From: the human T2T-CHM13v2.0 reference genome, Homo sapiens | DNA length: 64,000 nucleotides | NCBI GenBank assembly: GCA_009914755.4 | Contig: CP068257.2 | Span: forward strand, 11,264,001-11,328,000 | Direction: 5' to 3' | The notes under the pieces: generated by a model | Told to the model about the DNA's origin: nothing | The model's input: the letters and a program-made list of their open reading frames with translations, nothing else | Databases searched by the model: none | Translations under genes and position numbers: made by a program | In this document: positions 2,407 to 64,000 of the stretch, in pieces | How positions within the stretch are numbered: position 1 is the stretch's first letter | Layout of the letters: each line of letters opens with the position of its first letter

Positions 2407-2423
2407 TCCCGTTTCCAACGAAA
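2407..2423 (-). promoter_or_regulatory. CENP-B box (tcccgtttccaacgaaa), HOR monomer 4
   Basis: Exact reverse complement of the canonical TTTCGTTGGAAACGGGA. Confidence 0.75.
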
Positions 2424-2915: not shown

Positions 2916-2932
2916 TCCCGCTTCCAACGAAA
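2916..2932 (-). promoter_or_regulatory. CENP-B box (tcccgcttccaacgaaa), HOR monomer 7
   Basis: The essential core positions are intact. Confidence 0.7.
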
Positions 2933-3257: not shown

Positions 3258-3274
3258 TCCCGTTTCCAACGAAA
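3258..3274 (-). promoter_or_regulatory. CENP-B box (tcccgtttccaacgaaa), HOR monomer 9
   Basis: Exact reverse complement of the canonical box. Confidence 0.75.
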
Positions 3275-3595
3275 TCATTAGAGCTATACAAATATCCACT
3301 TACTGTTTCTACAAAAAGAGTGTTTCCAAACTGCTGCATCAAAAGAGAGGTTCCACTCTGTTAGCTGAGTACACACATCACAAACTTGTTTCTCAGAATC
3401 CTTCTGTCTCGTTTTTATGGGAAGATATTTACTTTTTCACCGTAGGCATCAAAGCGCTCCAAATGTCCACATCCAGATACTCCAGAAAGAGTGTTTCAAA
3501 CCTGCTCTATGAAAGGGAATCTTCAACTCTATGAGTTGAATGCAGACATCAGAAAGAAATTTCTGAGAATGCTGCTGTCTACCTTTTATTTGAAT

Positions 3596-3612
3596 TCCCG
3601 CTTCCAACGAAA
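3596..3612 (-). promoter_or_regulatory. CENP-B box (tcccgcttccaacgaaa), HOR monomer 11
   Basis: The essential core is intact. Box spacing within the HOR is 341/509/342/338/340 bp, i.e. every other monomer apart from one 3-monomer gap. Confidence 0.7.
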
Positions 3613-3737
3613 TCCTCCAAGCTATCCAAATATCCACTTGCAGATTCCACAAAAAGAGTGTTTCAAAACTGCTCTCTATCAATGGCAAAGTTCAACTCTG
3701 TTAGTTGAGGACACATATCACCAACAAGTTTCTGAGA

Positions 3738-39860: not shown

Positions 39861-41260
39861 CTATCAATGTCAAAGTTCAACTCTTTTAGTTGAGTACACA
39901 CATCACAAACAAGTTTCTGAGAAAGCTTCTGTCTACTTTTTAAGGGAAGACATTTCCTTTTTCACCAAAGGCATCAAAGCGCTCCAAATGTCCACTTCCA
40001 GATTCTACAAAAAGAGTGTTTCAAACCTGCTCTAAGTAAGAGAGTTTTCAACTCTGTGACTGGAATGCAGATATCACAAAGTAGTTTCTGAGACTGCTTC
40101 TGTGTATACTTTAGATGAAGATATTCCCGTTTCCAACGATATCGTTAGACCTATCCAAATATCCACTTACAGTTTCTACAAAAAGAGTGTTTCCAAACTG
40201 CTGCATCAAAAGAAAGGTTCAAGTCTGTTAGTTGAGGACACACATCACAAAGAAGTTTCTGAGAAAGCTTCTCTCTAGATTTTGTATGAAGATATTCCCT
40301 TTTCCAACGATATCCTTAAATCAACCCAAATATCAATTTGCAGAATCCACAGAAATAGAGTTTCAAAGCTGCTCTGTAAAAAGAAAGGATCCACTCTGTT
40401 AGCTGAGTACACACATCACAAACTTGTTTCTGAGAATCCTTCTGTCTAGTTTTTATGGGAAGATATTTACTTTTTCACAGTAGGTATCAAAGCGCTCCAA
40501 ATGTCCACATCCAGATACTACAGAAAGAGTGTTTCAAACCTGCTCTATGAAAGGGAATCTTCAACTCTATGAGTTGAATGCAGATATCAGAAAGTAATTT
40601 CTGAGAATGCTGCTGTCTACCTTTCATTTGAATTCCCGCTTCCAACGAAATCCTCCAAGCTATCCAAGTATTCACTTGCAGATTCCACAAAAAGAGTGTT
40701 TCAAAACTACTCTATCAATAGAAAGGTACAACTCTGTCAGTTGAGGACACACATCACAAACAAGTTTCTGAGAATTCTTCAATTTTTTATGGGAAGACAT
40801 TTCCTTTTTCACCGTAGGCATCAAAGCGCTCCAAATGTCCACATCCAGATAGTACAGAAAGAGTGTTTCAAACCTGCTCTATTAAAGGGAATGTTCAACT
40901 CTATGAGTTGAATGCAAACATCAGAAAGGAATTTCTGAGAATGCTGCTGTCTAGCTTTTATGTGAATTCCCGCTTCCAACGAAAAACTCCAAGCTATCCA
41001 AATATCCACTTGCAGATTCCACAAAAAGAGTGTTTCAAAACTGCTCTATCAATAGAAATGTTCAACTCCTTTCGCTGGGTACACAGATCACAAACAAGTT
41101 TCTGAGAATGCTTCTGTCTAGTTTTTATGGGAAGACATTTCCTTTTTCACCAAAGGCATCAAAGAGCTCCAAATGTCCACTTCCAGATATACAAAAAGAG
41201 TGTTTCAAAAGTGCTCTAAGAAAGCGAATGTTCAACTCTGTGACTTGAATGCAGATATCA
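39861..41260 (-). repeat. Third (partial, ~1.4 kb) copy of the diverged HOR; ~95% identical to 30,360-31,760
   Basis: ORFs at 40487, 40696, 40821, 40863 and 41030 correspond to 30986, 31195, 31320, 31362 and 31529 at a constant offset of 9,501. 39,890-40,150 matches 30,390-30,650. Confidence 0.7.
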
Positions 41261-43500
41261 CAAAGTAGTTTCTGAGAGTGCTTCTCTCTAGATTCTAGAC
41301 GAAGATACTGCCGTTTCCATCGATATCGTTAGAGCTATCCAAATATCCGCTTGCTATTTCTACAAAAAGAGTATTTGCAAACTGCTGTATCAAAGACAGG
41401 TTGTACTCTGTTAGTTGACGACACTCCTCACAAAGGAGTTTCTGAGAATGCTTCTGTCTAATTTTTATTGGAAGATGTCTCCTTTTTCACCATAGGCCTG
41501 AAAGCGCTCGAAATGTCCCCTTCCAGATAGTACAGAAAGAGTGTTTCAAACCTGCTCTATGAAAGGAAATTTTCAATTCTGTGACTTAAAAGCAAACATC
41601 ACAAAGAAGCTTCTGAGAATTCTGCTGTCTTCTTTTTTATGTCATACCGTTTCTAACGAAATCCTCAAAGCTATCCAATTATCCACTTGCAGATTCCACA
41701 AAAAGAGTGTTTGAAAACTGATCTATAAATAGAAAAGTTCAACTCTGTTGGTTGAGTACATACTTCACAAAGTAGTTTGTTAGAATGTTTCTGTCTAGTT
41801 TTTATCGGAAGACATTTCCTTTTTCACCAAAGGCGTCAAAGCGCTCCAAATGTCCACTTCCAGATTCTACAAAATGAGTTTTCAAACCTGCTCTAAGAAA
41901 GGGAATGTTCAACTCTGTGACTTGAATGCAGATATCACAAAGTAGTTTCTGAGAGTGCTTCTGTGTATACTTTAGATGAAGATATTCCCGTTTCCAACGA
42001 TATCGTTAGACCTATCCAAATATCCACTTACAGTTTCTACAAAAAGAGTGTTTCCAAACTTCTGCATCAAAAGAAAAGTTCAACTCTGTTAGTTGAGGAC
42101 AGACATCAGAAAGAAGTTTCTGAGAATGCTTCTCTCTAGATTTTGTATGAAGATATTCCCGTTTCCAGGAATATCGTTAAAGCAATCCAAATATCAACTT
42201 GCAGATTCCACGGAAATAGAGTTTCTAAGCTGCTCTGTAAAAAGAAAGGTTCCACTCTGTTAGGTGAGTACGCACATCACAAACATATTTCTGAGAATCC
42301 TTCTGTCTAGTTTTTATGGGAAGATATTTCCATTTTCACCATAGGTGTCAAAGCACTCCTAATGTCCACTTCCCGATACTACAAAAAGGGTGTTTCAACC
42401 CGGCTCTATGAAATTGAATGTTCAACTCTACGAGTTGAATGAAAAGATCATGAAGAAGTTTCTGAGAATGCTTCTGTCTAGATTTTGTATGAAGGTATTC
42501 CCGTTTCCAACGAAACCCTCTAAGCTATCCAAATTTCCACTTACAGATTCTTCAAAAAGAGTGTTTCAAACCTGCTCTGTCAAAAGAAAGGTTCAACTCT
42601 GTTAGTTGAGGTAACACATCACAAACAAGTTTCTGAGAATGCTTCTGTCTTTTTTTTATTGGAAGATATTTCCTTTTTCACAATAGGCGACAAAGTGCTC
42701 GAAATATCCACTTGCACATACTACAAAAAGTGTGTTTCAAACCTGCTCTATGAAAGGAAATGTTCAACTCTATGAGTTGAAAGCAAACATCAAAAAGAAA
42801 TTTCTGAGAATGCTGCTGTCTACTTTTTATATGAATTCCCGTTTCCAATGAAATCCTCAAAGCAATCCAAGTATCCCCTTGTAGATTCCACAAAAAGAGT
42901 GTTTCAAAACTCCTCTATGAACAGCAAGGTTCAACTCTGTTAGTTGGGACACACATCACAAAGAGTTTTCTGAGAATGCTTCTATGTAGATTTTATATGA
43001 AGATATTCCCGTTTCCAACGAAATCCACAAAGCCATCCAACATCCCCTTGCCGATTCTACAAAAAGAGTGTTTCAAAACTGCTCTGTAAAAAGAAAGGTT
43101 CAACTCTGTTAATTGAGTACAGACATCCCAAACATGTTTCTGAGAATGCTTCTGTCCAGTTTTTAATGGAAGATATTTCCTTTTTCACCATAGGCGTCAA
43201 AGCGCTCCAAATGTCCAATTCCAGATACTACAAAAAAGAGTGTTTCAAACCTGCTCTATGTAAGGGAATGTTTATCTCTACGAATTGAATGAAAACATCA
43301 CAAGAAGTTTCTAGGAATGCTTCTGTCTAGGTTTTATAGGAAGATATTCCCGTTTCCAACGAAATCCTCAAGGCTATCCAAATATCCACTTCCAGATTCG
43401 ACAAAAAGAGTGTTTCAAAACTGGTCTGTCAAAAGAAAATTTCAACTCTGTTAGTTGAGTACATATATCACAAACCGGTTTCTGAGAATGCTTCTGTCTA
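41261..43500 (-). repeat. Decayed HOR-related alpha monomers (~80-90% identity to HOR monomers), a transition layer
   Basis: Monomers 41,930-42,330 are recognisably m3-m6-like (gtgtatactttagatgaagatattcccgtttccaacgatatcgttagacctatccaaatatcc; cf. 40,100 and 30,610), but much more diverged. No in-register repeat was seen. Confidence 0.5.
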
Positions 43501-46500
43501 GTTTTTATGGGAAGATATTTCCTTTTTCACCGAAGGCATCAAAACGCTCCAAATATCCACTTCCAGATACTACAAAAAGAGTGTTTCAAACCTGCTCTAT
43601 GAAAGGGAATGATGTTCAAATCTGTGACTTGAATGCGGATATCACAAAGCGGTTTCTGAGAGTGCTTCTGTCGAGATTTTATATGAAGATATTCCCGTTT
43701 CCAAAGAAATATTTAGCGCTATCCAAAGATCCACTTGCAGATTCTACAAAAAGAGTGTTTCCAAACTGCTGTATCAAAAGAAAGGTTCAACATCTGTGAA
43801 CATAAAGATGTTTCTGATAATGATTCTGTCTAGTTTTTATGTGGAGATATTCCCGTTTCGAACGAAGGCCTCAAAGTGCTACAAATGACAACTTGCAGAT
43901 TCTGCAAAAAGAGTGTTTCAAAACTGTTCTATGAAAAGAAATGTTCAACTCTGAGAGTTGAATGCAAACGTCACAAAGAAGTTTCTGAGAATGCTTCTGT
44001 CTGGTTTTTATGTGAAGATATTACCGTTTCCAACGAAAGCCTCAAAGATGTCCTAATATCCACTTATGAATTCTACAAGAAGTGTTTCAAAAGTGCTCTT
44101 TCAAAGGAAAGGTTTAACACTGTGAGTTGAGTACACACATCACAAAGCAGTTTCTTAGCATGCTTCTGTCTAGTTTTTATGTGAAGATATTTCCTTTTTC
44201 ACCATAGGCCTCAAAGCGCTCCAAATGTCCACTTCCAAATACTGCAAAAAGAGTGTTACAAAACTACTCTATGAAAGGGAATGTTCAACTCTGTGAGTTG
44301 AATGCAAACATCACAAAGAAGTTTCTGAGAACGCTTCTGTCTAGTTTTTATGTGAAGATATTCCCGTTTCGAACGAAGGCCACAAAGCTCTCCAAATGTC
44401 CACCTGCAGATTCCAGAAAACGAGTGTTTCAAATCTCCTCTATCAAAAAAATTGTTAAACTCTGTGAGTTGAGTACACATATCACAAAGAAGTTTCTGTG
44501 AATTCTTGTGTGTAATTTTTATGGGAAGATATTTCCTTTATCACAATACACCTCAAAGAGCTCCAAACGTCCACTTGCAGATTCTACAAAAAGTGTGTTT
44601 CAAAACTGCCCTATGAAAAGGAATGTTCAACTCCATGAGTTGAATGCAAACATCAAAAAGAAGTTTCTGAGAATGCTTCTTTCTAGTTTTTATGTGAGGA
44701 TATTCCCGTTTCCACGGAAATCCTCAAAGCTATCCAAATATCCACTTGCAGATACTACAAAAAGATTGTTTCAAAATTGGTCTATCAAAATAAAGTTCAA
44801 CTCTGTGAATTGAGTACACACATCACAAAGAAGTCTCTGATAATTCTTCTGACTAGTTTTTATGTGAAGATATTTCCTTTTTCACCATAGGCCTCAAATC
44901 GCTCCAAATGTCCACTTCCAGATACTACAAAAAGTGTGTTTCAAAACTGCTCTATGTAAGGGAATTTTCAAATCTGTGAGTTGAATGCAAACATCACAAA
45001 GAAGTTTCTGAGAATGCTTCTGTCTAGTTTTTATGTGAAGGCATTCCCGTTTCCTACGAAATCCTCAAAGCTATCCAAATATCCTCTTGCAGATTCTACA
45101 AAAAGCGTGTTTCAAAACTGCTCTATCAAAAGAAAAGTTCAACTCTGTGAGTTGAGTACACACCTCACAAAGAAGTTTCTGAGAATTTTTATGTCTATTT
45201 TTTATGGGAAGATATTTCCTTTTTTATCATAGACCTCAAAGCCCTCCAAGTTTCCACTTACACATTCTACAAAAAGTGTTTCAAAACTGCTCTATGAAAA
45301 GGAATTTTCAATTCTGTGAGTTGAATGGAAGCATCACAAAGAAGTTTCTTACAATGCTTCTGTGTGGTTTTTATGTGAAGATATACCCGTTTCCAGTGAA
45401 GGCCTCCAATCTCTCCAAATATCCACTTCCAAATTCTACAAAAAGATTGTTTCCAATCTCCTCTATCAAAAGAAAATTTCAACTCTGTGAGTTGAATGCA
45501 CACATCACAAAAAAGTTTCTGAGAATGCTTCTGTCTAGTTTTTTGTGAAGATAATCCCGTTTCCAAAGAAATCCTCAATGCTGTCTTAATATCCACTTGT
45601 AAATTCTACAAGAAGAGTGTTTCAAAACTGCTGTATCAAAAGAAAGGTTTAACTCTGTGAGTTGAGTACACACATCACAAAGTAGTTTCTGAGAATGCTT
45701 CTGTCTACTTTTTATGTGAAGATATTTCCTTTTTCACCATAGGTCTCAAATCTCTCCAAATATCCACTTGCATATTCCTCAAAAAGAGTGTTTCAAAACT
45801 GCTCTATGAAAAGGAACGTTCAACTCTGTGAAATGAATGCAAGCATCACAAATAAGTCTCTGAGAATGCTTCTCTCTAGTTTTTATATGAAGATATTCCC
45901 GTTTCCAACGAAATCCTCAAAGCTATCCAAATATCCACTTGCACACTTGACAAAAAGAGTGTTTCAAAATTGCAGTATCAAAAGAAAAGTTCAAATCTGT
46001 GAATTGAGTACACACATCAGACAGAAGTATCTGAGAATTCTTCTGTCTAGTTTTTATTGGAAGATATTTCCTTTTTCATCATATGCATCAAAGAGCTCCA
46101 TGTTTCCACTTACAGATCCTTCAAAAAGAGTGTTTCAAAACTGCTCTATGAAAAGGAATGTTCAACTCTGTGAGTTAAATAAAAGCATCAAAAAAAAGTT
46201 TCTGAGAATGCTTCTGTCTAGTTTTTATGTGAAGATATTTCCATTTTCTCTATAAGCCTCAAAGCTGTCCAAATGTCCACTTGCAGATACTACAAAAAGA
46301 GTGTTTCAAAAGTGCTCAATGAAAAGGAATGTTCAGCTCTGTGAGTTAAATGCAAACATCACAAATAAGTTTCTGAGAATGCTTCTGTCTAGTTTTTATG
46401 GGAAGATAATTCCGTGTCCAGCGAAGGCTTCAAAGCTTTCAAAATATCCACTTGCAAATTCTACAAAAAGAGTGTTTCAAAGCTGCTTTATCAAAAGAAA

Positions 46501-49500
46501 GTTTCAACTCTGTGAGTTGAATGTGCACATCACAAAGAAGTTTCTGAGAATGCCTTCAGTCTGGTTTTTATGTGAAGATATTCCCTTTTCCAACGAAAGC
46601 CTCGAAGCTGTCCAAATATCCACTTGTAAGTGCTGCAAAAAGAGTGTTTCAAAACTGCTACAGCAAAAGAAAGGTTTATCTCTGTGAGTTGAGTAGACAC
46701 ATCAAGAAGAAATTTCTGAGAATGCTTCTGTCTAGTTTTTATGTGAAGATATTTCCTTTGTCACCATAGGCCTCCAAGCCCTCCAAATGTCCACTTGCAG
46801 ATGCTACAAAAAGAGTGTTTCAAAACTGCTGTATGAAAAGAAATGCTCAAATCTGTGAGATAAATGCATACATCACAAAGAAGTCTTTGAGAATGCTTCT
46901 GTCTAGTTTTTATGTTAAGATATTTCCTATTTCACCATACGTCTCAACGCACACAAAATGTACACTTGCAGATGCTACAAAGAGAGTGTTTCAAAACTTG
47001 TAGATCAAAACAAGTGTTCAACTTTGTGAGTTGAGGACACACATCTGAAAGAAGTTTCTGAGAATGCTTCTGTCTAGTTTTTATGTGAAGATATTCCCGT
47101 TTCCAGCGAAAGCCCCAAAACTATCCAAATATCCACTTGCACATTCTACAAAAAGAGTGTTTCAAATCTGCTCTATCAAAATAAAGGTTCAACTCTGTGA
47201 GTTGACTACACACATCACAAAGAAGTTTCTAAGAATGCTTCTGTCTGGTTTTTATGGGAAGATATTTCCTTTTTCAACATAGGCCTTGCAGCATCTACAA
47301 AAAGAGTTTTTCAAAACTCCTCTAAGAAAAGGAATGTTCAACTCCATGAGTTTAATGCAAAGATCACAAAGAAGTTTCTGAGAATGCTTCTGTCTAGTTT
47401 TAACCTGAAGACAGTTCCGTTTCCAGTGAAGGCTTGAAAGCTGTCCAAATATCCACATGCAAATTCTCAAAACGAGTGTTTAAAAGCTGCTCTATCACTA
47501 GAAAGTTTCACCTCTGTGAGCTGAATGCACACAGAAGTTTCTGAGAATGCTTCTGTCTGGTTTTTATGTGAAGATATTCCCGTTTCCAACCAAAGCCTCA
47601 AAGCTGTCCAAATATCCATTTGCAGATCCTACAGGGAGAGTGTTTCAAAACTGCTCTATAAAAAGAAAGGTTCTACTCTGTGAGTGGAGTACACACATCA
47701 CAAAGAAGTTTCTGAGAATGCTTCTGTCTAGTTTTTATGTGAAAATAGTTCGTTCTCCAAAATAGTCCTCAAAGCGCTCCAAATGTCCACTTGCAGATTC
47801 TACAAAAAGAGTGTTTCAAAACTGCTCTATGAAAAGGAATGTTCAACTCTGTGAGCTGAATGCAACCATCACAAAGAATTTTCTGAGAATGATTCTAATT
47901 ATTATGTGAAGATATTCCCGTTTCGAACGAAGGCCTCAAAGCGCTCCAGATGTCCACTTGCAGATTCTACAAAAAGAGTGTTTCAAAACTGCCCTATGGA
48001 AAGGAGGATTCAACTCTATGAGTTGAATGCACACATCACAAATGGTTTTTGCGAATGCTTCTGTCTGCTTTTTATGTGAAGATATTTCCTTTTTCACCAT
48101 AGGCCTCAAAGAAATCCAAATATCCACTTGCAGATACTACAGAAAGATTGTTTCAAAACTTCTGTTTCGACTCTGTGAGTTGAATGCACACATCATAAAG
48201 AAGTTTCTGAGAATGCTTCTGTCTAGTTTTTTTGTGAAGATATTCCCGTTTCCAAGGAAAGCCTCAAAGCTGTCCTAATATCCACTTTTGAATTTTACAA
48301 GTAGAGTGTTTGAAAACTGCTCTGTCAAAAGAAAGGTTTAACTCTGTGTGTTGAGGGCTCACATCACAAAGAAGTTTCTGAGAATGCTTCCATCTATTTT
48401 TTATGTTAAGATATTTCCTTTTTCACCATAGGCCTCAAAGCACACCAAATGTCCACTTGCATATTGTGCAAAGAGTGTTTCAAAACTGTGCTATCAAAAG
48501 AAGCGTTCAACACTGTGAGTTGAACGCACACATCACAAAGAAGTTTCTGAGCATGCTTCTGTATAGTTTTTATGTGAAGATATTCCCGTATCCGAAGAAG
48601 GCCTCCAGGTGGTCTAAATATTTGCACATTCTACTAAAAGAGTGTTTAAAAGCTGCTGTATGATAAAGTATGTTCGAATTTGTGAGTTGAATGCACACAT
48701 CACAAAGAAGTTTCTGAGAATGCTTCTGTCTAATATTTATGTGAAGATATTACGGTTTCCAACGAAGTCCTCAAAACCGTCCAAATATCCACTTGCAGAT
48801 TTTATAAAAAGAGTGTTTCAAAGCTGCTCTATCAAAAGAAAGCTTCAACACTGTGAGTGGAATGCACACATCACAAAGTAGTTTCTGAAAATGCTGCTGT
48901 CTAGTTTTTATGTGAAGATATTCCCATTTCCAATGAAGGCCACAAAGCCGTCCAAATATCCACTTGCAGATTCCACTAAAAGAGTGTTTCGAAACTGCTC
49001 TATGATAAGGAATGTTCAACTCTGTTAATTGAAGGCAAACATCACAAAGAAGTTTCTCAGAATGCTTCTCTCTAGTTTTTGTGTGAAGATATATCCTTTT
49101 CCATCATAGGCCTCTAAGCTCTCCAAATGTCCACTTGCAGATTCTACAAAAAGAGTGTTTCAAAACTGCTCTCTCAAAAGTAAGGTTCAACTTTTTGAGT
49201 TTAATACACACATCACATAGAAGCTTCTGAGAATGCTTCCGTCTAGTGTTTGTGTTAAGATATTCCCGTTTCCAACGAAGGCTTCAAAGCGGTCAAAATA
49301 TCCTCTTGCAGATACTACAAAAAGCGTGTATCAAAACTGCTCCATGAAAAGGTATGTTCAACCCTGTGAGTTCAATGTAAACATCACAAAGAAGTTTCTG
49401 AGAATGCTTGTGTCTGTTTTTTTGTGTGAAGATGTATCCTTTTCCACCATAGTCCTCAAAGCTCTCCAAATGTGCACTTGCAGATTCTACAAAAAGTGTG

Positions 49501-52500
49501 TTTCAAAACTCCTCTACCAAAAGAAAGGTTCAACTCTGTGAGTTTAATGCCCAGATCACAGACAAGTTTCTTAGGATGCTTCTGTCTAATGTTTATGTGA
49601 AGATATTCCCGTTTCCAACTAAGGCCTCAAAGAAGTCCAAATATCCAATTGCAGATTCTACAAAAAGAGCATTTCAAAACCTCTCTATGAAAATTTATGT
49701 TCAACTCTTTGAGCTGAATGCAAAGATCACAAAGAAGTTTCTGAGAATTCTTCTGTCTCATTTTTATATAAAGATATTTCCTTTTCCACCATTGGCCTCA
49801 AACCTCTCCAAATGTCCACATACAGATTCTACAAAAAGAGTGTTTAAAACCTGCTGTATCAAAAGAAGGGATCAACTCTGTGAGATGAATGAACACATCA
49901 CAAAGAAGTTTCTGAGAATGATTCTGTCTAGTTTTTATGTGAAGATATTCCCGTTTCCAACGAAGGCCTCAAAGGGGTCCAAATATCCACCCACAGACCG
50001 TGAAAAAAGAGTGATTCAAAACTGCTCTATCAAAAGAAAGGTTCAACTCTGTGAGTTGAATTTACACATCACAAAGAAGTTTCTGAGAATGCTGCTATCT
50101 ACTCTTTATGTGAACATATTCCCATTTCCAACGAAGACCTCAAACAATTCGAAATATCCACTTGCAGATTCTACTAAAAGATTGTTTCAAAAGTGCTCTC
50201 ATAAGGAATGTTCAACTCTGTGAGGTGAAAGCAAACATCACCAAGAAGTTTCTGAGAATGCTTCTGTCTAGTTTTTATGGAAAGATATTTTCTTTTCCAC
50301 CGTAGGCCTTAAAGCGCTCCAAATGTCCACTTGCAGATCCTACAAAAAGAGTGTCTCAAAAGTGCTCTCATAAGGAATGTTCAACTCTGTGAGGTGAAAG
50401 CAAACATCACCAAGAAGTTTCTGAGAATGCTTCTGTCTAGTTTTTATGGGAAGATATTTCCTTTTCCACCGTAGGCCTTAAAGCGCTCCAAATGTCCACT
50501 TGCAGATCCTACAAAAAGAGTGTCTCAAACCTACTCTCTCAAAAGAAAGGTTCAACTGTGTGAGTTGAATACACACGGCACAAAGAAGTTTCTGAGAAAG
50601 ATTCTGTCTAGCGATTATGTGAAGATATTCCCGTTTCCAACAAAGGCTTGTAAGTGGTCCAAATATCCACTTGCAGATTCTACTAAAAGAGTGTTTCTAA
50701 ACAGCTCTATGATAAGATATGCTTAACTCTGTGAGTTGAGAACAAACATCACAAAGAAGTTTCTGAGAATGCTTCTGTCTAGTTTTTATGTGAAGATATT
50801 TCCTTTCCCACCATAGGCCTCAAAGTGCTCCAAATGTCAACTTGGAGATTATGCAAAAAGAGTGTTTCCAACCTGCTCTATCAAAAGAAATGTTCAACTC
50901 TGTGAGATGAAAGCACATATCACAGAGAAGTTTCTGAGAATTCTTCTGTCTGGTTTTAATATGAAGATATTTCCTTTTCCACCATAGGATTCAAAGCTCT
51001 CCAAATGTCCACTTGCAGATTCTACAAAAAGAGTGTCTCAAAACTGCTCTATCAAAAGAAAGGGTCAAATCTGTGGGTTGAATGCACACATCACAAAGAA
51101 GTTTCTGGGAATGCATCTTTCTAGTTTTTATGTGAAGATATTCCCGTATCCAATGAAGGCCTCAAAGCAGTCCACATATCCACTTGCAGATTCTGCAAAA
51201 AGTGTTTCAAAACTGCTCTATCAAAAGAAATGTTCAACTCTGTGAGTTGAATGTACACATCACAAGGAAGTTTCTGAGACTGCTGCTGTCTAGTATTTAT
51301 GTGAAGATATTCCCGTTTCCAATGAAGGCCTCTAGGCGTTCCAAATATCCACTTGCAGATTCTCCTGAAGGAGTTTTTCAAAAATGCCCTGTGATAAAGT
51401 ATGACCAATTCTGTGAGTTGAATGCAAACATCAGAAAGAAGTTTCTGAGAATGCTTCTGTATAGTTTTGATGTGAAGATATTTCTTTTTCCACCATAGGC
51501 CTCAAAGCTCTCCAAATGTCCACATGCAGATTCCACGCAAAGAGTGTTGCAAACCTGCTCTATCAAAAGAAAGGTTCAGCTCTGTGAGTTGAATGCAAAC
51601 ATCACAAAGAAGTTTCTGAGAAGGCTTCTGTCTAGCATTTCTGTGAAGATACACCCGTTTCCAATGAAGGCCTCAAAGCGGTCGAAATATCCACTTGCAG
51701 ATTCTCCAAAAAGTGTTTCAAACCTGCTCTATCAAAAGCAAGGTTCAACTCTGTGAGATGAATGCACACATCACAAAGAAATTTCTGAGAATGCTTCTGT
51801 TTAGTTTTTATGCGATGATATTTCCTTTTCTACCAGAGGCCTCAAGCTCTCCAAATGTCCAAAAGCAGATTTTACAAAAAGAGTGTTTCAAAACTGCTCC
51901 ATCAAAAGGAAGGTTCAACTCTGTGAGTTGAATGCAAACATCACAAAGAAGTTTCTGAAAATGCTTCTGTCTAGTGTTTATATGAAGATATACCCGTTTC
52001 TAACGAAGGCCTCAAAGCAGTCCAAATATCCACTAGCAGAATCTACAAAAAGAGTGTTTCAAACCTGCTCTATCAAAAGAAAGGTTCAACTCTGCCAATG
52101 GAATGCACACATCACTAAGGAGTTTTTGAGAATGCTTCTGTCAAGTGTTTATGTGAAGATATTCACGTTGCCACGAAGGCCTCAAAGCGGTCCAAATATC
52201 CACTTGCAAATTCTACTGAAAGAGTGTTTCAACACTGCTCTATGATAAGGTATGTTCAACTCTGTGAGTTGAATGCAAACATCACAAAGAAGTTTCTGAG
52301 AATGCTTCCGTCTAGTTTTTATATGAAGACATTTCCTTTTCCAACATAGGCCTCAAACCGCCCCAAATGTCCACTTGCAGATTCTACAAAAAGAGGGTTT
52401 TAAACCCGCTCTATCAAAAGAAAGGTTCAACTCCGTGAGTTGACTCCACACAGCACAAAGAAGTTTCTGAGAATGCTTCTATCTCGTGATTATGTGACGA

Positions 52501-55500
52501 TATTCTCCTTTCCATTGAAGGCCTCAAAGCAGTCCAAATATCTATTTGCAGATTCTACTAAAAGACTGTTTCAAAACTGCTCTAGATAAAGTATGTTCAA
52601 CTCTGTGAGTTGAATGCAAACATCACAAAATAGTTTCCGAGAATGCTTCTGTCTAGTTTTTATGTGAAGATATTTCCTTTTCCACCCTAGGCCTCAAAGC
52701 GCTCCAAATGTACACTTGCTGATTCTGCAAAAAGAGTGTTTCAAACCTGCTCTATGAAAAGGAAGGTTCAACTCTGTGAGTTGAATGCACACATCACTAA
52801 GAAGTTTCTGAGAATGCTTCTGTCTAGTGTTTATGTGATGATATTCCCGTTTCCAACGATGGCCTCAAATTAGTCCAAATATCCCCTTGCAGATTCCTCT
52901 ATAAGAGTGCTTCAAAACTACTCTATGATAAGGTATGTTCAACTCTGTGAGTTGAATGCACACATCACAAAGTAGCTTCTCAGAATGCTTCTATCTAGTA
53001 TTTACATGAAGCTATTCCCTTTTCCAATGAAGGCCTCAAAGAGGTCCAAATTTCCACTTGCAGATTCTACTAAAAGAGTATTTCAAAACTGCTCTATGAT
53101 AAAGTCTGTTCAACTCCGTGAGTTGAATGCACACATCACAAAGCAGTTTCTCAGAATGCTTCTGTCAAATTTTTATGTTAAGGTATTTTCTTTTCAACTT
53201 TAGGCCTCAAAGCAATCCAAATGTCCACTTGTAGTTTCTGCAAAAGAGTGTTTCAAACCTGCTCTATCAAAATAAAGGTTAAACTCTGTGAGTTTAATGC
53301 ACACATCACAAAGAAGTTTCTGAGAATGCTTTGGTCTAGTTTTTATGTGAAGATACTCTCCTTTCCAACAAAGGCATGAAAGCAGTTCAATTACCCACAT
53401 GCAGATACTACTAAAAGAGTGTTTCAAAACTGCTCTGTGATAAAGTTTGTTCAACTCTGAGAGTTGAATGAAAACGTCACAAAGAAGTTTCTGAGAATGC
53501 TTCTGTGTAGTTTTTGTGAGAAGATATTCCGTTTTCCACCATTGGAATAGAAGCGCTACAAATGTCCACTTGCAGATCCTGCAAAAAGTGTGTTTCATAC
53601 CTGCTCTATGAAAAGGAAGGTTCAACTTGGTGAGTTAAATGCACGCATCACAAAGAAGTTTCTGAGAATGCTTCTGTCTAGTTTTTGTGTGAAGTTATTT
53701 CCTTTCCCACCATATGCCTCAAAACTCTCCAAATGCACACATGCAGATTCTGCAAAAAGAGTGTTTCAAACGTGCACTATCAAAAGTTCATCTCTGTGAG
53801 TTGAATGCACACATCACAAAGAAGTTTCTGAGAATGCTTCTGTCTAGTTTTTATGTGAAGGTATTCCTGTTTCTAATGAAGACCTCAAATCGGTCCAAAT
53901 ATCCACTTGCAGATTCTCCAAAAAGAGTGTTTCAAAACTGCTCTATGATAAGGAAAGTTCAACTGTGTCAGTTGAATGCAAACATCACAAAGAAGTTTCA
54001 TAGAATGCTTCTGTCTAGTTTTTATGAGAAGATATTTCATTTTCCACAATAGGCCTCAAAGCACCCCAAATGTCAAGTTTCAGATTCTACAAAAAGAGTG
54101 TTTCAAACCTGCTCTAGGATAAAGTATGTTCAACTCTGAGAATTGAAGGCAAACAACAAAAAGAAGTTTCTGAGAATGCTGCTGTTTAGTATTAATATGA
54201 AGATATTTCCTTTTCCACCATAGGCATCAAATCGCTCATAATGTCCACTTGCAGATTCTGCAAAAAGAGTGTTAAACCTGCTCTATCAATAGAAAGGGTC
54301 AACTCTCTGAGTTGAATGCACACATCAAAAAGCATTTTCCTAGAATGCTTCTGTCTAGTTTTTATGTGAAGAAACTACTGTTTCCAGGGAAGGCCTCAAA
54401 GCTGTCCAAATATCCACTTGCAAATTCTACAAAAAGAGTGTTTCAAATCTGCTCCATCAAAAGAAAATTTCAACTCTGTGAGTTGAATGCACACAGCACA
54501 AAGAAGTTTTTGAGAAAGCTTCATTGTGTGAAGATACTCCCGTTTCCAACGAAGACCTCAAAGCAGTCCAATTATACACTTGCAGATACTACAAAAAGAG
54601 TGTTTCAAAACTGATCTATGATAAAGTATGTTAAACTCTTGAGAGTTGAATGCAAAAGTCACAAATAAGTTTATGAGAATGCTTCTGTCTAGTTTTTATG
54701 TGAAGATATTTCCTTTTCCTCCATAGGACACAAAGCACTCCTAATGTCCACTTGTAGATTCTGCAAAAGAGTGTTTCAAACCTGCTCTATAAAAAAAAAA
54801 GGTTCAACTCTGCGAGTTGGATACACACAGCACAAAGAACTTTCTGTGAAAGCATCATTATGTAAAGATACTCCCGTTTCCAACGAAGGCCTCAAAGCCC
54901 TCCAATTATCCACTTGCAGATACTACTAAAAGAGTGTTTCAAAACTGCTGTATGATAAAGTATGTTAGACTCTGAGAGGTGAATGCAAACGTCACAAATA
55001 AGTTTATGAGAATGCTTCTGTCTAGTTTTTATGTGAAGATATATCCTTTTCCACCATAAGCCTCAAAGAGCTCCACATGTCCACTTGCGGATCCTGCAAA
55101 AAGAGTGTTTCAACCCTGCTCTATGAAAAGGAAGGTTCAACTCTGTGAGTTGAATGGACACATCAAAAAGTAGTTTCTGAGAATGCTTCTGTCTAGTTTT
55201 TATGTGAAGATATTGCAGTTTCCAATGAAGGCCTCAAAGCGGTCCAAATATCCACTTGCAGATTCTACGAAAATAGTGTTTCAAAACTACTCTATGAAAA
55301 GGGAGGTTCAACTCTGTGAGTTGAATGCAAACATCACAAAGAAGTTTCTGACATTGCTTCTGTCTAGTTTTTATTTATAGACATTTCCTTTTCCACCATA
55401 GGCCTCCAAGCTCTCCAAATGTCTGCTTGCAGATTCTACAAAAAAAGTGCTTCAAACCTGCTCTATCAAAAGAAAGGTTCAATTTTGTGACTGGAATGCA

Positions 55501-58500
55501 CACATCACAAAGAGGTTTCTGAGAATAATTTTGTCTAGTGTTTATGTGAAGATATCCCCTTTTCCAACGAAGGCCTCAAAGCGGTTCAAATATCCACTTG
55601 CAGATTCTACAAAGAGAGTGTTTCAAACCTGCTCTATCAAAAGGAAGGTTCAACTCTGTGAGTTGAATGCACACAGTTCAAAAAAGTTTTTGAGAAAGCT
55701 TCTGTCTAGTGATTATGTGAAGATATTCCCCTTTCCAACAAAGGTCTCAAAGTGGTCCAAATATTCACTTGCAGATTCTACAAAAAGAGTGTTTCAAAAC
55801 TGCTCTATGAAAAGGTGTGTTCAACTCTATGAGTTGAATGCAAACATCACAATGTAGTTCCTTAGAATTCTTCTGTCTGGTTTTTATTTACATATATTTC
55901 CTTATCCACCATAGGCCTCATAGCTCTAAAAATGTCTGGTGCCGATTCTACAGAAAGAGTGTTTCAAACATGCTCTATCAAAAGAAAGATTCAACTCTGT
56001 GAGTTGAATGCACATATCACAAAGAATTTTCGGAGAATGCTTCCGTCTAGTGTTTATGTGAAGACATTCCCGTTTCCAAAGAAGGCCTCCAAGCGGTCCA
56101 AATATACATTTCCAGATTCTACAAAAAGAGTGTTTCAAAACTGCTCTATCAAAAGAAAGGTACAACTTTGTGAGTAGAATGCACACATCACAAAGAAGTT
56201 TCTGAGCATGCTTCTCTCTAGTTTTTATGTGAAGATATTTACTTTTCCACCTCAATGCTCTCAAATGTCCACTTGCAGATTCTACAAAAAGAGTGTTTCA
56301 AACATGCTCTATCAAAAGAAAGTTTCAACTCTTGGGGTTGAATGCACACATCACAAAGAAGTTTCTGAGAATGATTCTGCCTGTTTTTGTGTGAACATAT
56401 TCCCGTTTCCAACAAAGGTCTCAAAGCGTTTCAAATATCCACTTGCATATTCTACGAAAAGAGTGTTTCAAAACTGCTCTATGGAAAGGTATCTTCAACT
56501 CTGTGAGTTGAATGCAAACATCATAAAGAATTTTCTGAGAATTCTTCTCTCTTATTTTTATATGAAGATATAACCTTTTCCACCATAGGCCTCAAAGCTC
56601 TCCAAATGTCAACTTGCAGATTCTACAAAAAGAGTGTTTCAAAGCTGCTCTATCAAAAGAAAGGTTCGACTCTTTGAGTTTAATGCACGCATGACAAAGA
56701 AGTTTTTGAGAATGCTTCTGTCTAGTGTTTATGTGAAGACATTCCCGTTTCCAATGAAGGCTTCATAGCAGTCCAAATATCCACTTGCAGATTCTATAAA
56801 AAGAGTGTCTCAAAATTGCTCCAAGGGAAGGTACCTTCAATTCTGTGAGTTGAATGCAAACATCACAAAGACGTTTCTGAGAACGCTTCTGTCTAGTTTT
56901 TGTGTGAAGATATTTCCTTTTCCACCATAGGACTCAAAGCTCTACAAATGTCCACTTGCAGATACTAAGAAAAAAATGTTTCAAACCTGCTCTATGAAAA
57001 GAGAGGTTCATCTCTGTGAGTTGAATGCACACATCACAAAGAAGTTTCTGAGAACGTTTCTCTCTAGTTTTTATGTGAAGATACTTCCTTTTCCACCATA
57101 GGCCTCAAAGCTCTCCAAATGTCCACTTCAGATTCTACAAAATGAATGTTTCAAACATGCTCTATCAAAAGAAAGGTTCAACTCTGTGAGTTGAATGCAC
57201 ACATCACAAACAAGTTTATGAGAATGCTTCCGTCTAGTTTTTATGTGAAGATATATCCTTTTCCACCATAGGACTCAAAGAGCTCCAAATGTCCACTTGC
57301 AGATCCTGCAAAAAGAGTGTTTCAACCCTGCTCTATGAAAAGAAGGGTTCAATTCTGTGAGTTCAATGCATACATCAAAAGTAGTTTCTCAGAATGCTTC
57401 TGTCTAGTTTTTAATGTGAAGATATTCCCGTTTCCAATGAAGGCCTCAAAGCAGTCCAAACATCCACTTGCAGATTATAAGAAAAGAGTGTTTCAAAATT
57501 GCTCTATGAAAAAGGAGGTTTAACTCTGTGAGTTGAATGCAAACATCACAAAGAAGTTTCTGAAAATGCTTCTGTCTAGTTTTTATTTATAGATATTTCC
57601 TTTTCCACCATAGGCCTGAAAGCTCTCGAAATGTGCACTTGCAGATTCTACCAACAGAGTGTTTCAAAGCTGCTCTATCAAAAGAAAAGTTCAACTCTGT
57701 GAGTTAAGTGCACACATTACAAAGGGGTTTCTGAGAATGCTTCTTTCCACGTTTTATGTGAAGATAGTTCCTTTTCCACTATAGACCTCAAAACACTCCA
57801 AATGTCCACTTGCAGATTCTACAAAAAGATTGTTTCAAAGCTGCTCTATCAAAAGAAAGTTTCAAATCCGTATGTTCAATCCACACAGCACAAAGATGTT
57901 TCTGAGAAAGCTTCTGTCTAGTGATTATGTGAAGATACTCCAGTTTCCAAGGAAGGCCTCAAAGCTGTCCAAATATCCACCTGCAGATTCTACTAAAAGA
58001 GTGTTTCAAAACTGTTCTAAGATAAAGTCTGTTCAACTCCATGAGTTGACTACACACATCACAAAGTAGTCTTAGAGAATGCTTCTGTATACTTTTTATG
58101 TGAAGATATTTCCTTTTCCACCGTAGGCATCAAAGGGCTCGAATTGTCCACTTGTAGGTTCTGCAAAAGAGTGTTTCAAACCTGCTCTATAAAAACAAAG
58201 GTTCAACTCTGTGAGTTTAATTCGCACATAACAAAGAAGTTTCTCAGAATGCTTCTGTCTAGTTTTTATGTGAAGCTATTTCCTTTTCCACCATAGGCCT
58301 CAAAGCAGTTCAAATGTCAACTTGTAGATACAAAAAGAGTGTTTCAAAACTTCTCTATGAAAAGGAAAGTTTAACTCTGTAAGTTTAATGAAAACACCAC
58401 AAAGAAGTTTCTGAGAATGCTTCTGTCTAGTTTTTATGTGAAGATATTTCCTTTTCCACCATAGGCCTCAAATCGCTCCAAATGTCCACTTGCAGATTCT

Positions 58501-59600
58501 ACAAAGAGAGTGTTTCAAACCGGCTCTATCAAAGGAAAGGTTCAACTCTGTAATTTGAATGCACACATCACAAAGGAGTTTCTGAGAATGCTTCTCTCTA
58601 GTGTTTATGTGTAGATATTCCTGTTTCCAATGAAGGCCACAAAGCGGTCTAAATATCCACTTGCAGATTCTACAAAAAGTGTGTTTCCAAACTGCTCCAT
58701 AAAAATGTATGTTCAACTCTGTGAGTTAAATGCAAACATCCTGAAGAAGTTTCTGAGAATGCTTCTGTCTAGTTTTTGTGTGAAGATATTTCCTTTTCCA
58801 CCATATGCCTCAAAGCTCTCCAAATGTCAACTTGCAGATTCTACAAAAAGAGTGTTTCAAACCTGCTCTATCAAAAGAAAAGTTCAACTCTGTGAGTTGA
58901 ACCTCACTAAGAGGTTTCAGAGAATGCTTCTGTCTAATCTTTATGTGAAGGTATTCCCGTTTCCAACGAAGGCCTCAGAGCGGTCCAAATATCCACTTAC
59001 GAAGTCTACTAAAAGAGTGTTTCAAAACTGCTCTATGATAAGATATGTTCAAATCTGTGAGTTGAATGCAAACATCACAAAGAAGTTTCTGAGAATGCTT
59101 CTGTCTAGTTTTTATGTGAAGTTATTTCCTTTTCCACCATTGGCCTCAAAGCACTGCAAGTGTCCACTTGCAGATTCTACAAAAAGAGTATTTCAAACCT
59201 GCTCTATCAAAAGAAAGGTTCAACTCTCTGAGTTGAATGCACACTTCACAAAGAAGTTTCCGAGAATTCTTCTGTCTGGTTTTTATGTGAAAATATTTCC
59301 ATTTCCACCATAGGCCTCAGAGCGATCAAAATGTCCACTTGCAGATTATACAAAAACAGTGTCTCAAAACTGCTCTATCAAAAAGAAGGTTCAACTCTGT
59401 GAATTGAATGCACACATCACAAAGAAGTTTCTGAGAATGCTTCTGTCTAGTGTTTATGTGAAGGTATTCCCATTTCCCCTGAAGGCCTCAAAGCACTCCA
59501 AATATCCACTTGCAGATTCTACAAAAAGTGTGTTTCAAAATTGTTCTGTCAAGAGGAATGGTGAACTCTGTGAGTTGAATCACAAATCACAAAGAAGTTT
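43501..59600 (-). repeat. Monomeric (non-HOR) alpha satellite with alternating A-type (tttccttttccaccataggcctc) and B-type (ttcccgtttccaacgaaggcctc) monomers; ~75-90% inter-monomer identity
   Basis: ~170-bp periodicity. ORF-track translations are similar but not identical between neighbours. Intact B boxes occur at e.g. 43,350, 43,850, 44,350, 45,040, 45,895, 47,090, 47,915, 49,265, 49,945, 51,995, 54,540, 54,870 and 58,955; many others are degenerate. Confidence 0.7.
50191..50528 (-). repeat. Recent tandem duplication of a single 169-bp monomer (2 mismatches in 169) inside the monomeric zone
   Basis: aagtgctctcataaggaatgttcaactctgtgaggtgaaagcaaacatcaccaagaagtttctgagaatgcttctgtctagtttttatgg[a/g]aagatattt[t/c]cttttccaccgtaggccttaaagcgctccaaatgtccacttgcagatcctacaaaaagagtgtctcaa at 50,191-50,359 and again at 50,360-50,528. 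Confidence 0.65.
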
Positions 59601-62600: not shown

Positions 62601-64000
62601 AAAACTGCTCAATCAAAAGATAGCTTCAACTCTGTGAGTTGAGTGCACATATCACAAAGAAGTTTCTCTGAATGCTACTGCATAGTTTTTATTTCAAGAT
62701 ATTTCCTTTTCCAACATAGGGCGCAAAGGTCTTCAAATATCCACTTGCAGATTCTACAAAAAGAGAGATTGAAAACTCCTCAAAGAGAAGATAATTTCAA
62801 CTCTATGAGTTGAATGCACACCTCACAAAGTAGTTTCTCAGAATGCTTCTGTGTAGTTTTTACGTGAAGATATTTCCTTTTCCACAATAGGCCTCAAAGC
62901 TTTCCAAACATACACTTGTAGTTTCTGCAAAAAGAGAGATTCAAAACTGCTCAATCAAAACGTAGTTTCAACTCTGTGAGTTGAATGCAAACATCACTAT
63001 GGTGTTTCTCAGAATGTTTCTGAGTAGTTTTTATGTGAAGGTATTTCCTTTTCCACAATAGGCCTCAAAAGGCTCCAAATATCCACTTGCAGATTCCACG
63101 AAGAGAGTGTTCCAAAACTGCTCAATCAAAAGAAAGTTTCAACTCTGTGAGATGAATGCACACATCGCAAAGGAGTTTCTGAAATTTCTTCCTTCTAGAT
63201 TTTATGTGAAGATATTTCCTTTTCTATCATAGGCCGCAAAGCGCTCCAAATGTCCACTTGCCGATTCTACAAAAAGGGTATTTCCAAACTACACAATCAA
63301 AAGAAAGTTTCAACTCTGTTAGCTCAACGTACACATCATAAAAAAGATTATCAGAATTCTTCTGTTTTTTTGTGTGAAGATATTTCCTTTTCCAACTTAA
63401 GCCTCAAGGTGCTTGAAATGTCCCCTTGCAGATTCTCCAAAAAGAGTATTTGAAAACTGGTTCTCCTAAAGAAAGTTGGAACTCCAGGGGATGAATGCAG
63501 ACATCACACAGAACTTTCTCAGAATGCTTCTATCTACTTTTTATGTGAAGATATTTCCTTCTCCACCACAGGCCTCAAAGCCCTGCCAAATGTCCACTTG
63601 CAGATCCTACAAAAAGAGAGTTTCCAATCTGCTCAATCAAAAGAAAGGTTTAACTCCGTGAGATTAATGCACGCATCACAAAGAAGTTTCTCAGATTGCT
63701 TCTGTCTAGATTTTATGTGAAGATATTTCCTTTTCTACCATTGGCCGCAAAGAGTTCCAAATGTCCACTTGCAGATTCTACAAAAAGAGTGTTTCCAAAC
63801 TACTTAATGAAAAGAAACGTTCAACTCCGTGAGATGAACACACTCATCACAAAGAAGTTTCTCAGAATTCTTCTAATTTTTATGTGAAGATATTTCCTGT
63901 TCCACCATAGGCCTGAAGACACTCTAAATGTCCGCTTGCAGATTCTACAAAAAGAGAGTTTCAAAACTGCTCAATCAAAAGGAAGGGTTATCTCTGTGAG
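59601..64000 (-). repeat. A-type-only monomeric alpha satellite (no CENP-B boxes), a distinct monomer class with signatures ctcagaatgcttctgtgtag / gagagattcaaaactgctcaat. A weak, decayed ~1.36-kb (8-monomer) periodicity is present at 60.0-63.2 kb.
   Basis: Every monomer carries a pJalpha-like ttccttttccac(c/a)atagg, and none has CCCG...CGAA. Monomer pairs separated by ~1,360-1,365 bp share private variants (60,200 vs 61,565: at-cac/g-gaagaagtttcttagaatgc; 61,055 vs 62,415: cacctcacaaag; 60,370 vs 61,735: gactctaa...gaatgccca). Confidence 0.55.

What the first reader, a model, noticed from the sequence alone, without database searches (positions are those of the whole stretch)
41261..59600. 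CENP-B boxes intact in all live HOR copies but decaying in the flank, often by CGAA to TGAA
In the HOR array all 5 boxes per unit satisfy nCCCGnnTnnnnCGAAn in every copy. In the A/B monomeric zone only about 17 of ~45 B-type monomers keep the core. Recurrent decayed forms are ccaaTGaagg (e.g. 48,920, 51,135, 51,310, 51,650, 56,745, 57,425), ccaaAGaaa, cCCCTttt and ccaacAaagg. The CG-to-TG pattern is the signature of methyl-CpG deamination. It implies long-term methylation and loss of selection for CENP-B binding outside the active array.
Basis: partly seen in the sequence, partly recalled or inferred. Interest (0 to 1): 0.55.

Follow-up and report, generated by a model that had tools for sequence, protein, structure and literature searches.

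The report
CENP-B box decay beside alpha21-I array
This is the edge of the well-studied human chromosome 13/21 centromeric alpha-satellite array, where CENP-B protein-binding motifs are mostly intact in the young, homogenised repeats and mostly broken in the old flanking repeats, an ordinary and long-known age effect rather than a new finding.

Summary
The window is all alpha satellite. Positions 1-41,245 are the alpha21-I 11-monomer higher-order repeat (HOR) of chromosomes 13/21: published chr21 primers match exactly, and the EcoRI pattern, five boxes and inactive sixth box fit. Beyond it lie diverged layers: near-dimeric A/B (41,246-48,687), irregular A/B (48,688-59,577), then A-type only.

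The contrast is real. The box core is intact in 96/109 HOR positions and 15/56 flank B-type monomers (p=3e-15). The listed decayed forms and coordinates are correct. "Every copy" is wrong: 13 HOR boxes are broken, 8 of them carrying a CpG transition. The count is 15 of 47-56, not 17 of 45.

CG-to-TG is the commonest flank lesion (15/56). Its CpG dependence is supported: 3/51 at the same column in A-type monomers, where the C is rarely followed by G (p=0.004). CpG observed/expected falls from 0.50 to 0.17 outward.

The selection inference is not supported. Any 9-position pattern of the same geometry is intact in 88% of HOR and 38% of flank monomers, and the box sits at the 47th and about the 20-25th percentile. 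Intactness tracks array age and homogenisation. The CpG excess also exists inside the HOR.

The alpha21-I/alpha21-II contrast in box content is long established (attributed to Ikeno 1994), so interest is low.

The parts
140..25803 (-). Canonical alpha21-I 11-monomer HOR copies (1,870 bp; about 13.7 units). Monomer classes are a-k, with CENP-B boxes in a, c, f, h and j, and a fixed inactive box in class d.
   Evidence: Box spacing 340/341/509/342/338. Class string abcdefghijk repeats. chr21 alphoid primers 11-10R and mCbox-4 match exactly. EcoRI spacing is 850/680/340. Box core is intact in 62/69; divergence from class consensus is 0.65%.
25804..41245 (-). Rearranged and more diverged alpha21-I HOR variants at the array edge, including a duplicated 13-monomer 2,195-bp unit.
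   Evidence: Class string with deletions and hybrids, identity to reference classes 86-100%. Box core is intact in 34/40; divergence is 3.0%.
41246..48687 (-). Flank layer 1: diverged, roughly dimeric A/B monomers (B box ...CGAAA, A box TTTTTCACC). The first monomers still follow HOR order g-c-d-e at 81-87% identity.
   Evidence: 25 B-type monomers, 9 with intact core. Divergence 12.6%. CpG observed/expected 0.38.
48688..59577 (-). Flank layer 2: irregularly alternating A and B monomers (B box ...CGAAG, A box TTTTCCACC), organised like suprachromosomal family 5 (SF5: R1/R2 monomers).
   Evidence: 31 B-type monomers, 6 with intact core. Type string is irregular. No partner above 93.5% identity. 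CpG observed/expected 0.25.
59578..64000 (-). Flank layer 3: 26 consecutive A-type monomers with no B-type site, organised like the older SF4+ families.
   Evidence: CpG observed/expected 0.17.
42499..47111 (-). Eight intact-core boxes of flank layer 1, starting at 42,499, 43,007, 43,348, 43,851, 44,362, 45,045, 45,897 and 47,095. A ninth starts at 47,916.
49264..58971 (-). Six intact-core boxes of flank layer 2, starting at 49,264, 49,949, 51,992, 54,538, 54,872 and 58,955.
   Evidence: Monomers 54,484-54,646 and 54,818-54,979 share a 9-bp deletion, so their two boxes are not independent.
42837..59484 (-). Fifteen B-type sites with CGAA>TGAA (C13>T), starting at 42,837, 45,385, 47,415, 48,922, 51,142, 51,311, 51,653, 52,504, 53,016, 53,865, 55,214, 56,743, 57,426, 58,619 and 59,468.
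7676..40141 (-). Thirteen broken boxes inside the HOR zone. TTCCG at 7,676, 15,156 and 18,894. TCCCA at 9,546, 17,026 and 20,764. AATGAA at 23,484, 26,038, 30,624 and 32,819. AAAGAA at 26,889. AACAAA at 35,023. CGATA at 40,125.
2578..2594 (-). Example of the fixed inactive box of HOR class d (TCCCTTTTCCAACGATA), present in each canonical unit. It corresponds to 'monomer 10' of the published alpha21-I 11mer.
   Evidence: Ohzeki 2002, PMC2173396.

Best explanation
The window spans the edge of the alpha21-I (D21Z1/D13Z1, suprachromosomal family 2) 11-monomer HOR array and the older alpha-satellite layers beside it.

In the HOR zone nearly all boxes are intact because the copies were amplified and homogenised recently and differ by only 0.7-3%. 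Everything in them is intact, not just the boxes.

The flank monomers are relics of earlier arrays that are no longer homogenised. They have drifted 11-13% from their consensus. A motif needing 9 exact positions, 4 of them in two hypermutable CpGs, therefore survives in only about a quarter of them. Methyl-CpG deamination (CG>TG/CA) is the largest single class of lesion but not the majority of lesions.

Shown here: the structure, the counts, the CpG excess, and the equality of box and non-box decay. Inferred: germline methylation as the cause of the CpG excess. Also inferred: any selection for boxes acts on which HOR unit gets amplified, not on individual boxes.
For: - Identity of the array.
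- Zone structure.
- Core versus rest-of-monomer divergence is 1.53% against 1.68% in the HOR and 12.3% against 11.6% in the flank. (1-d)^9 predicts 86% and 33% intact; observed values are 88% and 27%.
- Sliding 9-position control: mean 88% intact in the HOR (box at the 47th percentile) and 38% in the flank (box at about the 20-25th percentile).
- CpG dependence: the A-type control at the same column gives 15/56 against 3/51, p=0.004. In layer 2 the CpG transition rate is 19.4% against 3.3%, and both box CpGs are among the least retained dinucleotides.
- CpG observed/expected declines 0.50 to 0.17 outward, and box CpG retention declines with distance (p=0.0004 and p=0.006).
- No flank monomer has a partner above 93.5% identity, so the lesions are not copies of recent duplications.
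- Literature: the dead-layer model and the halt of homogenisation in flanks (PMC9549924); alpha21-II has few or no CENP-B boxes (PMC2173396).
Against: - Strand and site asymmetries are not expected from simple deamination: C13>T 15 against G14>A 5 (p=0.04), and 20 transitions at the second CpG against 6 at the first (p=0.009).
- TG-bearing monomers are slightly more alike than TG-versus-CG pairs (0.823 against 0.788, permutation p about 0.05). Some TG states may therefore be inherited, not independent.
- In layer 1 the CCCG CpG is kept in 24/25 monomers (top 8% of dinucleotide windows), which hints at residual constraint or a younger age.
- Counting copies rather than events, and using group consensuses as ancestors, are approximations.
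- Methylation itself was not observed.
Confidence: 0.8

Rival explanations
1. Purifying selection for CENP-B binding keeps each box intact in the live array. That selection is relaxed in the flank, where methylated boxes then decay.
For: CENP-B boxes are required for de novo centromere assembly on alpha21-I DNA (PMC2173396). Centromere dip regions are slightly enriched for intact boxes across thousands of haplotypes (bioRxiv 10.64898/2026.09.03.749043). Intact fractions differ strongly here.
Against: Within this window the box core is no better conserved than any other 9-position pattern in HOR monomers (47th percentile; 1.53% against 1.68% per site). 13 HOR boxes are broken, and two broken variants have each spread to three copies. 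One HOR monomer carries a dead box that is fixed. The flank intact fraction is close to the neutral expectation, which is also what this model predicts, so the flank cannot discriminate between the two models.
Confidence: 0.2
2. Many of the 'decayed' TGAAG forms are not independent decay events. They are an old monomer variant that was already box-dead when the layer was amplified, so the recurrent CG>TG is shared ancestry.
For: TG-bearing B monomers of layer 2 are more alike (0.823) than TG-versus-CG pairs (0.788), permutation p about 0.05. There is a strand asymmetry of 15 C>T against 5 G>A. In layer 2 TG (12) is as common as CG (11).
Against: A-type monomers, which serve as an outgroup, have C at this column in 44/51 cases, so T is derived. 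TG monomers are scattered among CG monomers and none has a close relative (best identities 83-90%). The similarity excess is small and borderline.
Confidence: 0.15
3. Boxes in dead layers are actively removed, because ectopic CENP-B binding beside the centromere is selected against. They would then decay faster than neutral.
For: In layer 2 the box is intact in 19% of monomers against a 39% mean for other windows (16th percentile). Transversions at the four CpG positions are also raised: 20/224 = 8.9% against about 5-6% elsewhere.
Against: The 16th percentile is unremarkable. Two CpGs in the core explain faster-than-average decay. Layer 1 shows no such effect (56th percentile). CpG transversions are known to be moderately raised at methylated CpGs (general knowledge).
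Confidence: 0.04

Closest known systems
alpha21-I / alpha21-II organisation of the human chromosome 21 (and 13) centromere, attributed to Ikeno et al. 1994 and described in Ohzeki et al. 2002 (PMC2173396)
   Same: An 11-monomer HOR with five active CENP-B boxes and one inactive two-nucleotide variant box. EcoRI cuts it into 5mer, 4mer and 2mer subunits. The published primers match exactly. The adjacent region of diverged monomers is poor in CENP-B boxes.
   Different: The literature describes alpha21-II as having 'no CENP-B boxes'. In this junction window 15 core-intact boxes persist in the first 18 kb of flank and thin out with distance. Chromosome 13 versus 21 cannot be told apart here.
Layered 'dead' alpha-satellite flanks: the expanding-centromere model and suprachromosomal families SF2 > SF5 > SF4+ (Shepelev 2009 as cited; PMC9549924; PMC4496801)
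   Same: Order outward from the HOR: dimeric A/B, then irregular A/B, then A-type only. Divergence rises and CpG content falls outward. The flank has no HOR periodicity.
   Different: Family assignment here rests on organisation and box type only. No formal monomer-class (PERCON/HMM) annotation was run.
Methyl-CpG deamination (CpG>TpG/CpA hypermutability) and methylation-sensitive CENP-B binding
   Same: CpG transitions are 6-7 times more frequent than non-CpG transitions. Both box CpGs are among the least retained dinucleotides in the oldest B-containing layer.
   Different: The strand symmetry expected of deamination is not seen at the second CpG (15 against 5). The same excess occurs inside the HOR, so it does not mark the flank specifically.

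Membership tests
alpha21-I 11mer HOR (D21Z1/D13Z1, S2C13/21H1L) | Eleven-monomer unit of about 1.87-1.9 kb, tandemly repeated with high identity | tested here: met
   1,870-bp period. Class string abcdefghijk repeats 13.7 times. 0.65% divergence from class consensus.
alpha21-I 11mer HOR (D21Z1/D13Z1, S2C13/21H1L) | Five active CENP-B boxes plus one monomer with a two-nucleotide variant that lacks binding | tested here: met
   Boxes in classes a, c, f, h and j. Class d is TCCCTTTTCCAACGATA, which carries G>T and A>T. Description in PMC2173396. Binding itself was not tested.
alpha21-I 11mer HOR (D21Z1/D13Z1, S2C13/21H1L) | Exact match to published locus-specific primers, and EcoRI 5mer/4mer/2mer subunits | tested here: met
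   11-10R and mCbox-4 match with 0 mismatches, are convergent and give a 195-bp amplicon. SA4, T1 and T3 are exact. EcoRI spacing is 850/680/340. SA3 had no exact match.
alpha21-I 11mer HOR (D21Z1/D13Z1, S2C13/21H1L) | Location on human chromosome 13 or 21 | not testable with these tools
   No human genome collection is available.
D8Z2 (chromosome 8 11-mer HOR), considered | High identity to the chr8-specific alpha-satellite probe of Logsdon 2021 | tested here: not met
   Best match 79% identity.
Functional CENP-B box | Core nTTCGnnnnAnnCGGGn (here read as nCCCGnnTnnnnCGAAn) | tested here: met
   111 sites, 96 in the HOR zone and 15 in the flank.
Functional CENP-B box | CENP-B occupancy in vivo, with unmethylated CpGs | not testable with these tools
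   Needs ChIP or CUT&RUN and 5mC calls.
SF5-like and SF4+-like dead monomeric layers | Irregular alternation of A- and B-type monomers (SF5); A-type only (SF4+); no HOR | tested here: met
   Type strings. Best partner identity 75-93.5%, with no periodic offsets.
SF5-like and SF4+-like dead monomeric layers | Assignment of monomers to classes R1/R2/M1 by reference consensus or HMM | not tested
   Reference class models are not available in these tools.
Methyl-CpG deamination signature | Excess of C>T/G>A at CpG over the same changes at non-CpG sites | tested here: met
   15/56 against 3/51 at the same column (p=0.004). Rates are 19.4% against 3.3% in layer 2 and 1.25% against 0.17% in the canonical HOR.
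Methyl-CpG deamination signature | Similar frequency of TG and CA products (both strands deaminate) | tested here: not met
   Second box CpG: 15 TG against 5 CA by substitution count (p=0.04). Non-box CpG at column 86: 4 TG against 17 CA. First box CpG: 3 against 3.

The most novel reading that the evidence does not exclude
The two CpGs of the CENP-B box decay very unequally, and on one strand preferentially. CCCG is kept in 41/56 flank sites (24/25 in the layer nearest the array), against 26/56 for CGAA. C>T outnumbers G>A by 15 to 5. If this is not shared ancestry or local sequence context, it could mean that residual CENP-B binding, or a strand-specific repair or replication bias, shapes how boxes die next to a centromere.
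Probability: 0.07. Interest if true: 0.45.

Novelty: already known. Interest (0 to 1): 0.1.

Why it matters
It matters little as a discovery. The window reproduces the textbook alpha21-I/alpha21-II contrast and the known layered, CpG-depleted decay of old alpha satellite.

The useful point is methodological. A high fraction of intact boxes in a HOR array is not by itself evidence of per-box purifying selection, because any 9-base pattern is equally intact in a recently homogenised array. CG>TG lesions also occur inside the array.

Tried and rejected
- Chromosome 8 D8Z2 was my first guess: an 11-mer of suprachromosomal family 2 with frequent A-type (pJalpha) boxes. I rejected it because the chr8-specific probe from Logsdon 2021 matches at 79% or less.
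- Recent segmental duplication as the cause of the recurrent TGAAG forms is rejected. No flank monomer pair exceeds 93.5% identity.
- I suspected that four short (161-163 bp) flank monomers with intact boxes were one special subfamily. Only two of them (54,484-54,646 and 54,818-54,979) share a deletion; the others are truncated elsewhere.
- A literature search for an explicit prior tabulation of CpG>TpG decay of CENP-B boxes in dead layers found none in the held library. It found only general statements that boxes are rare or mutated outside HORs and that a B-box need not be an actual binding site.
- Primers SA3 and H2 of Ohzeki 2002 gave no exact match. H2 is mutagenic by design. SA3 is unexplained.
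- The trend of whole-box intactness with distance is only weak (Mann-Whitney p=0.09), although CpG retention shows a clear trend.
Full report
**What the window is.** Tandem Repeats Finder reports one 171/342-bp array over all 64,000 bases. nhmmer segmentation gives 377 head-to-tail monomers, all on one strand. That pattern occurs 111 times on this strand and never on the other; 0.03 hits are expected by chance.

**Zones.** I compared every monomer with eleven reference monomers.
- Monomers 1-151 (to about 25,800) form a regular 11-monomer higher-order repeat (HOR) of 1,870 bp, with monomer classes a-k.
- Monomers 152-242 (to 41,245) are rearranged HOR variants with hybrid or missing monomers and lower identity.
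- From 41,246 identity to HOR classes falls below about 87% and HOR order is lost, after a last diverged g-c-d-e run.
- The site at the box position and the A/B type strings divide the flank into three layers.
  - 41,246-48,687 is roughly dimeric A/B, with ...CGAAA boxes and TTTTTCACC A-sites.
  - 48,688-59,577 is irregular A/B, with ...CGAAG boxes and TTTTCCACC A-sites.
  - 59,578-64,000 is 26 A-type monomers in a row.
- No flank monomer has a partner above 93.5% identity. The flank is therefore truly non-HOR and free of recent duplications.

This order matches the published sequence of suprachromosomal families (SF): SF2, which is dimeric D1/D2; then SF5, which is irregular R1/R2; then SF4+, which is A-type only (PMC4496801; PMC9549924). 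I did not run a formal class annotation.

**Which HOR.** My first guess, chromosome 8 D8Z2, failed. The chr8-specific probe printed in Logsdon 2021 matches at 79% or less. Several lines identify the array as the alpha21-I 11mer instead.
[quoted passage not shown] They are convergent and 195 bp apart.
- Primers SA4, T1 and T3 of Ohzeki 2002 are also exact, and EcoRI sites fall at 850/680/340 bp, the published 5mer/4mer/2mer subunits.
- Ohzeki 2002 describes the alpha21-I 11mer as having five CENP-B boxes plus one monomer ('monomer 10') whose motif has two nucleotide changes and no binding activity. My class d (TCCCTTTTCCAACGATA, present in every unit) is exactly that.

The window is therefore the alpha21-I/flank junction of chromosome 21 or 13. 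Which of the two cannot be tested here.

**Checking the observation.**
- The core is intact at 96 of 109 box positions in the HOR zone: 62/69 in the canonical part and 34/40 in the variant part.
- It is intact in 15 of 56 flank B-type monomers, or 15 of 47 if ambiguous sites are dropped. Fisher p=3e-15.
- 'Every copy' is wrong, because thirteen HOR boxes are broken: TTCCG three times, TCCCA three times, AATGAA four times, and AAAGAA, AACAAA and CGATA once each.
- The TTCCG and TCCCA variants recur in a two-HOR block that appears three times. Broken boxes have therefore been propagated by the same amplification that spreads intact ones.

**Is CG>TG in excess?**
- Among the 56 flank sites there are 89 differences from the box consensus. 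C13>T (CGAA>TGAA) is the largest class at 15. With G14>A (5), C4>T (3) and G5>A (3), CpG transitions total 26.
- An internal control is available. A-type monomers also have C at column 13, but it is followed by A in 39 of 51 and by G in only 4. There C>T occurs in 3/51 against 15/56 (p=0.004).
- Over whole monomers, the CpG transition rate is 19.4% against 3.3% for non-CpG transitions in layer 2. It is 6.6% against 4.1% in layer 1.
- The excess is not flank-specific. It is 1.25% against 0.17% in the canonical HOR and 2.65% against 0.95% in the variant HOR.
- CpG observed/expected falls steadily outward: 0.50, 0.43, 0.38, 0.25, 0.17. Retention of each box CpG falls with distance from the array (p=0.0004 and p=0.006).
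The excess is real.
- It is not the whole story. Of 41 broken flank boxes, 14 are broken only by CpG transitions, 8 by a CpG transition plus something else, and 19 only by other changes.

**Does the contrast show selection in the array and its loss in the flank?** This is the step that fails.
- Per-site divergence from the relevant consensus is the same in the nine core positions as in the rest of the monomer. It is 1.53% against 1.68% in the HOR zone and 12.3% against 11.6% in the flank.
- From the non-box divergence alone, (1-d)^9 predicts 86% and 33% intact; observed values are 88% and 27%.
- As a control free of that independence assumption, I slid the same 9-position geometry along the monomer and asked how often each window equals its consensus. 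The mean is 88% in HOR monomers and 38% in flank monomers.
- The real box window lies at the 47th percentile in the HOR. In the flank it lies at about the 20th-25th percentile: 56th in layer 1 and 16th in layer 2.
- The box is thus an ordinary window in both zones. It is slightly worse than average in the oldest B-containing layer, as expected for a motif with two CpGs, which are among the least retained dinucleotides there.
- The HOR-versus-flank difference is therefore the general difference between a recently homogenised array and old monomers that are no longer homogenised. This is how the field describes dead layers (PMC9549924).
- Selection for boxes may well act on which HOR unit is amplified (Ohzeki 2002) or on where CENP-A sits (2026 pangenome preprint). 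This window gives no evidence for it at the level of individual boxes.

**Methylation.** I could not measure it. Published CHM13 data say that live HOR arrays are the one heavily methylated satellite class: median 60% against 22.6% in dead HOR arrays, and 75% at CENP-B motifs outside the centromere dip region. [quoted passage not shown] Somatic methylation therefore does not set the flank apart. The CpG depletion gradient is best read as time spent under germline methylation, which is an inference.

**Loose ends.**
- At the second box CpG, C>T outnumbers G>A by 15 to 5 (p=0.04). The second CpG has 20 transitions against 6 at the first (p=0.009).
- A non-box CpG at column 86 shows the opposite bias, 4 TG against 17 CA.
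- TG-bearing monomers in layer 2 are slightly more alike than TG-versus-CG pairs (0.823 against 0.788, p about 0.05).
- Part of the TG excess may therefore be an inherited variant rather than recurrent mutation, although C is ancestral by the A-type outgroup. Local sequence context could also contribute; that is my own suggestion and is untested.
- In layer 1 the CCCG CpG survives in 24/25 monomers (top 8% of dinucleotide windows), which I cannot explain.

**Verdict.** The deamination reading is supported as a mutational bias but is not specific to the flank. The inference of relaxed selection is not supported by the data. The underlying biology, alpha21-I rich in boxes and alpha21-II poor in them with layered decay of old alpha satellite, is already known. 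Interest is low.

Noticed in passing
window 7,617-22,600: A two-HOR (3.74 kb) haplotype block recurs three times. The box variant TTCCG lies at 7,676, 15,156 and 18,894, and each is followed 341 bp later by TCCCGTTTCAAACGAAA. One HOR further on, TCCCA lies at 9,546, 17,026 and 20,764. Broken boxes are thus propagated by local amplification.
   Followed up: partly
window ~29,900-34,300: A 13-monomer (2,195 bp) rearranged HOR variant is tandemly duplicated. Box pairs are 30,282/32,477, 30,624/32,819, 31,133/33,328 and 31,467/33,662. The unit includes a 162-bp monomer with a 5-bp deletion.
   Followed up: partly
window 59,578-64,000: Twenty-six consecutive A-type monomers with no B-type site and the lowest CpG observed/expected value (0.17). 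A subset has TTG[ACG]TTTTCCAC[AT]GTA[AG] at the box position, recurring every 1-4 monomers.
   Followed up: no
window 47,203-47,351 and 48,024-48,180: Truncated monomers of 149 bp and 157 bp. Tandem Repeats Finder also reports a local 149-bp period at 47,136-47,422.
   Followed up: no
window 54,484-54,979: Two B-type monomers (163 and 162 bp) share a 9-bp deletion upstream of the box, and both keep a perfect box. They are otherwise only 79% identical, so this is an old local duplication.
   Followed up: partly
A-type monomers throughout (e.g. 1,899 vs 49,436): The A-type (pJalpha-type) site reads CACCGTAG in HOR classes e, i and k but CACCATAG in 39 of 51 flank A monomers. The same CpG-versus-CpA difference therefore exists at the alternative box. 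Its direction was not resolved.
   Followed up: no
window 41,246-48,687: In the layer nearest the array the CCCG CpG of the box is retained in 24/25 B monomers, while the CGAA CpG is retained in 15/25. This asymmetry is unexplained.
   Followed up: partly
whole window: Non-CpG transition/transversion ratio relative to class consensus is about 0.6 in every zone tested, from the HOR through flank layer 2. The spectrum is transversion-rich, in line with a 2026 pangenome preprint on alpha satellite. It may be inflated by subfamily mixing in the flank.
   Followed up: no
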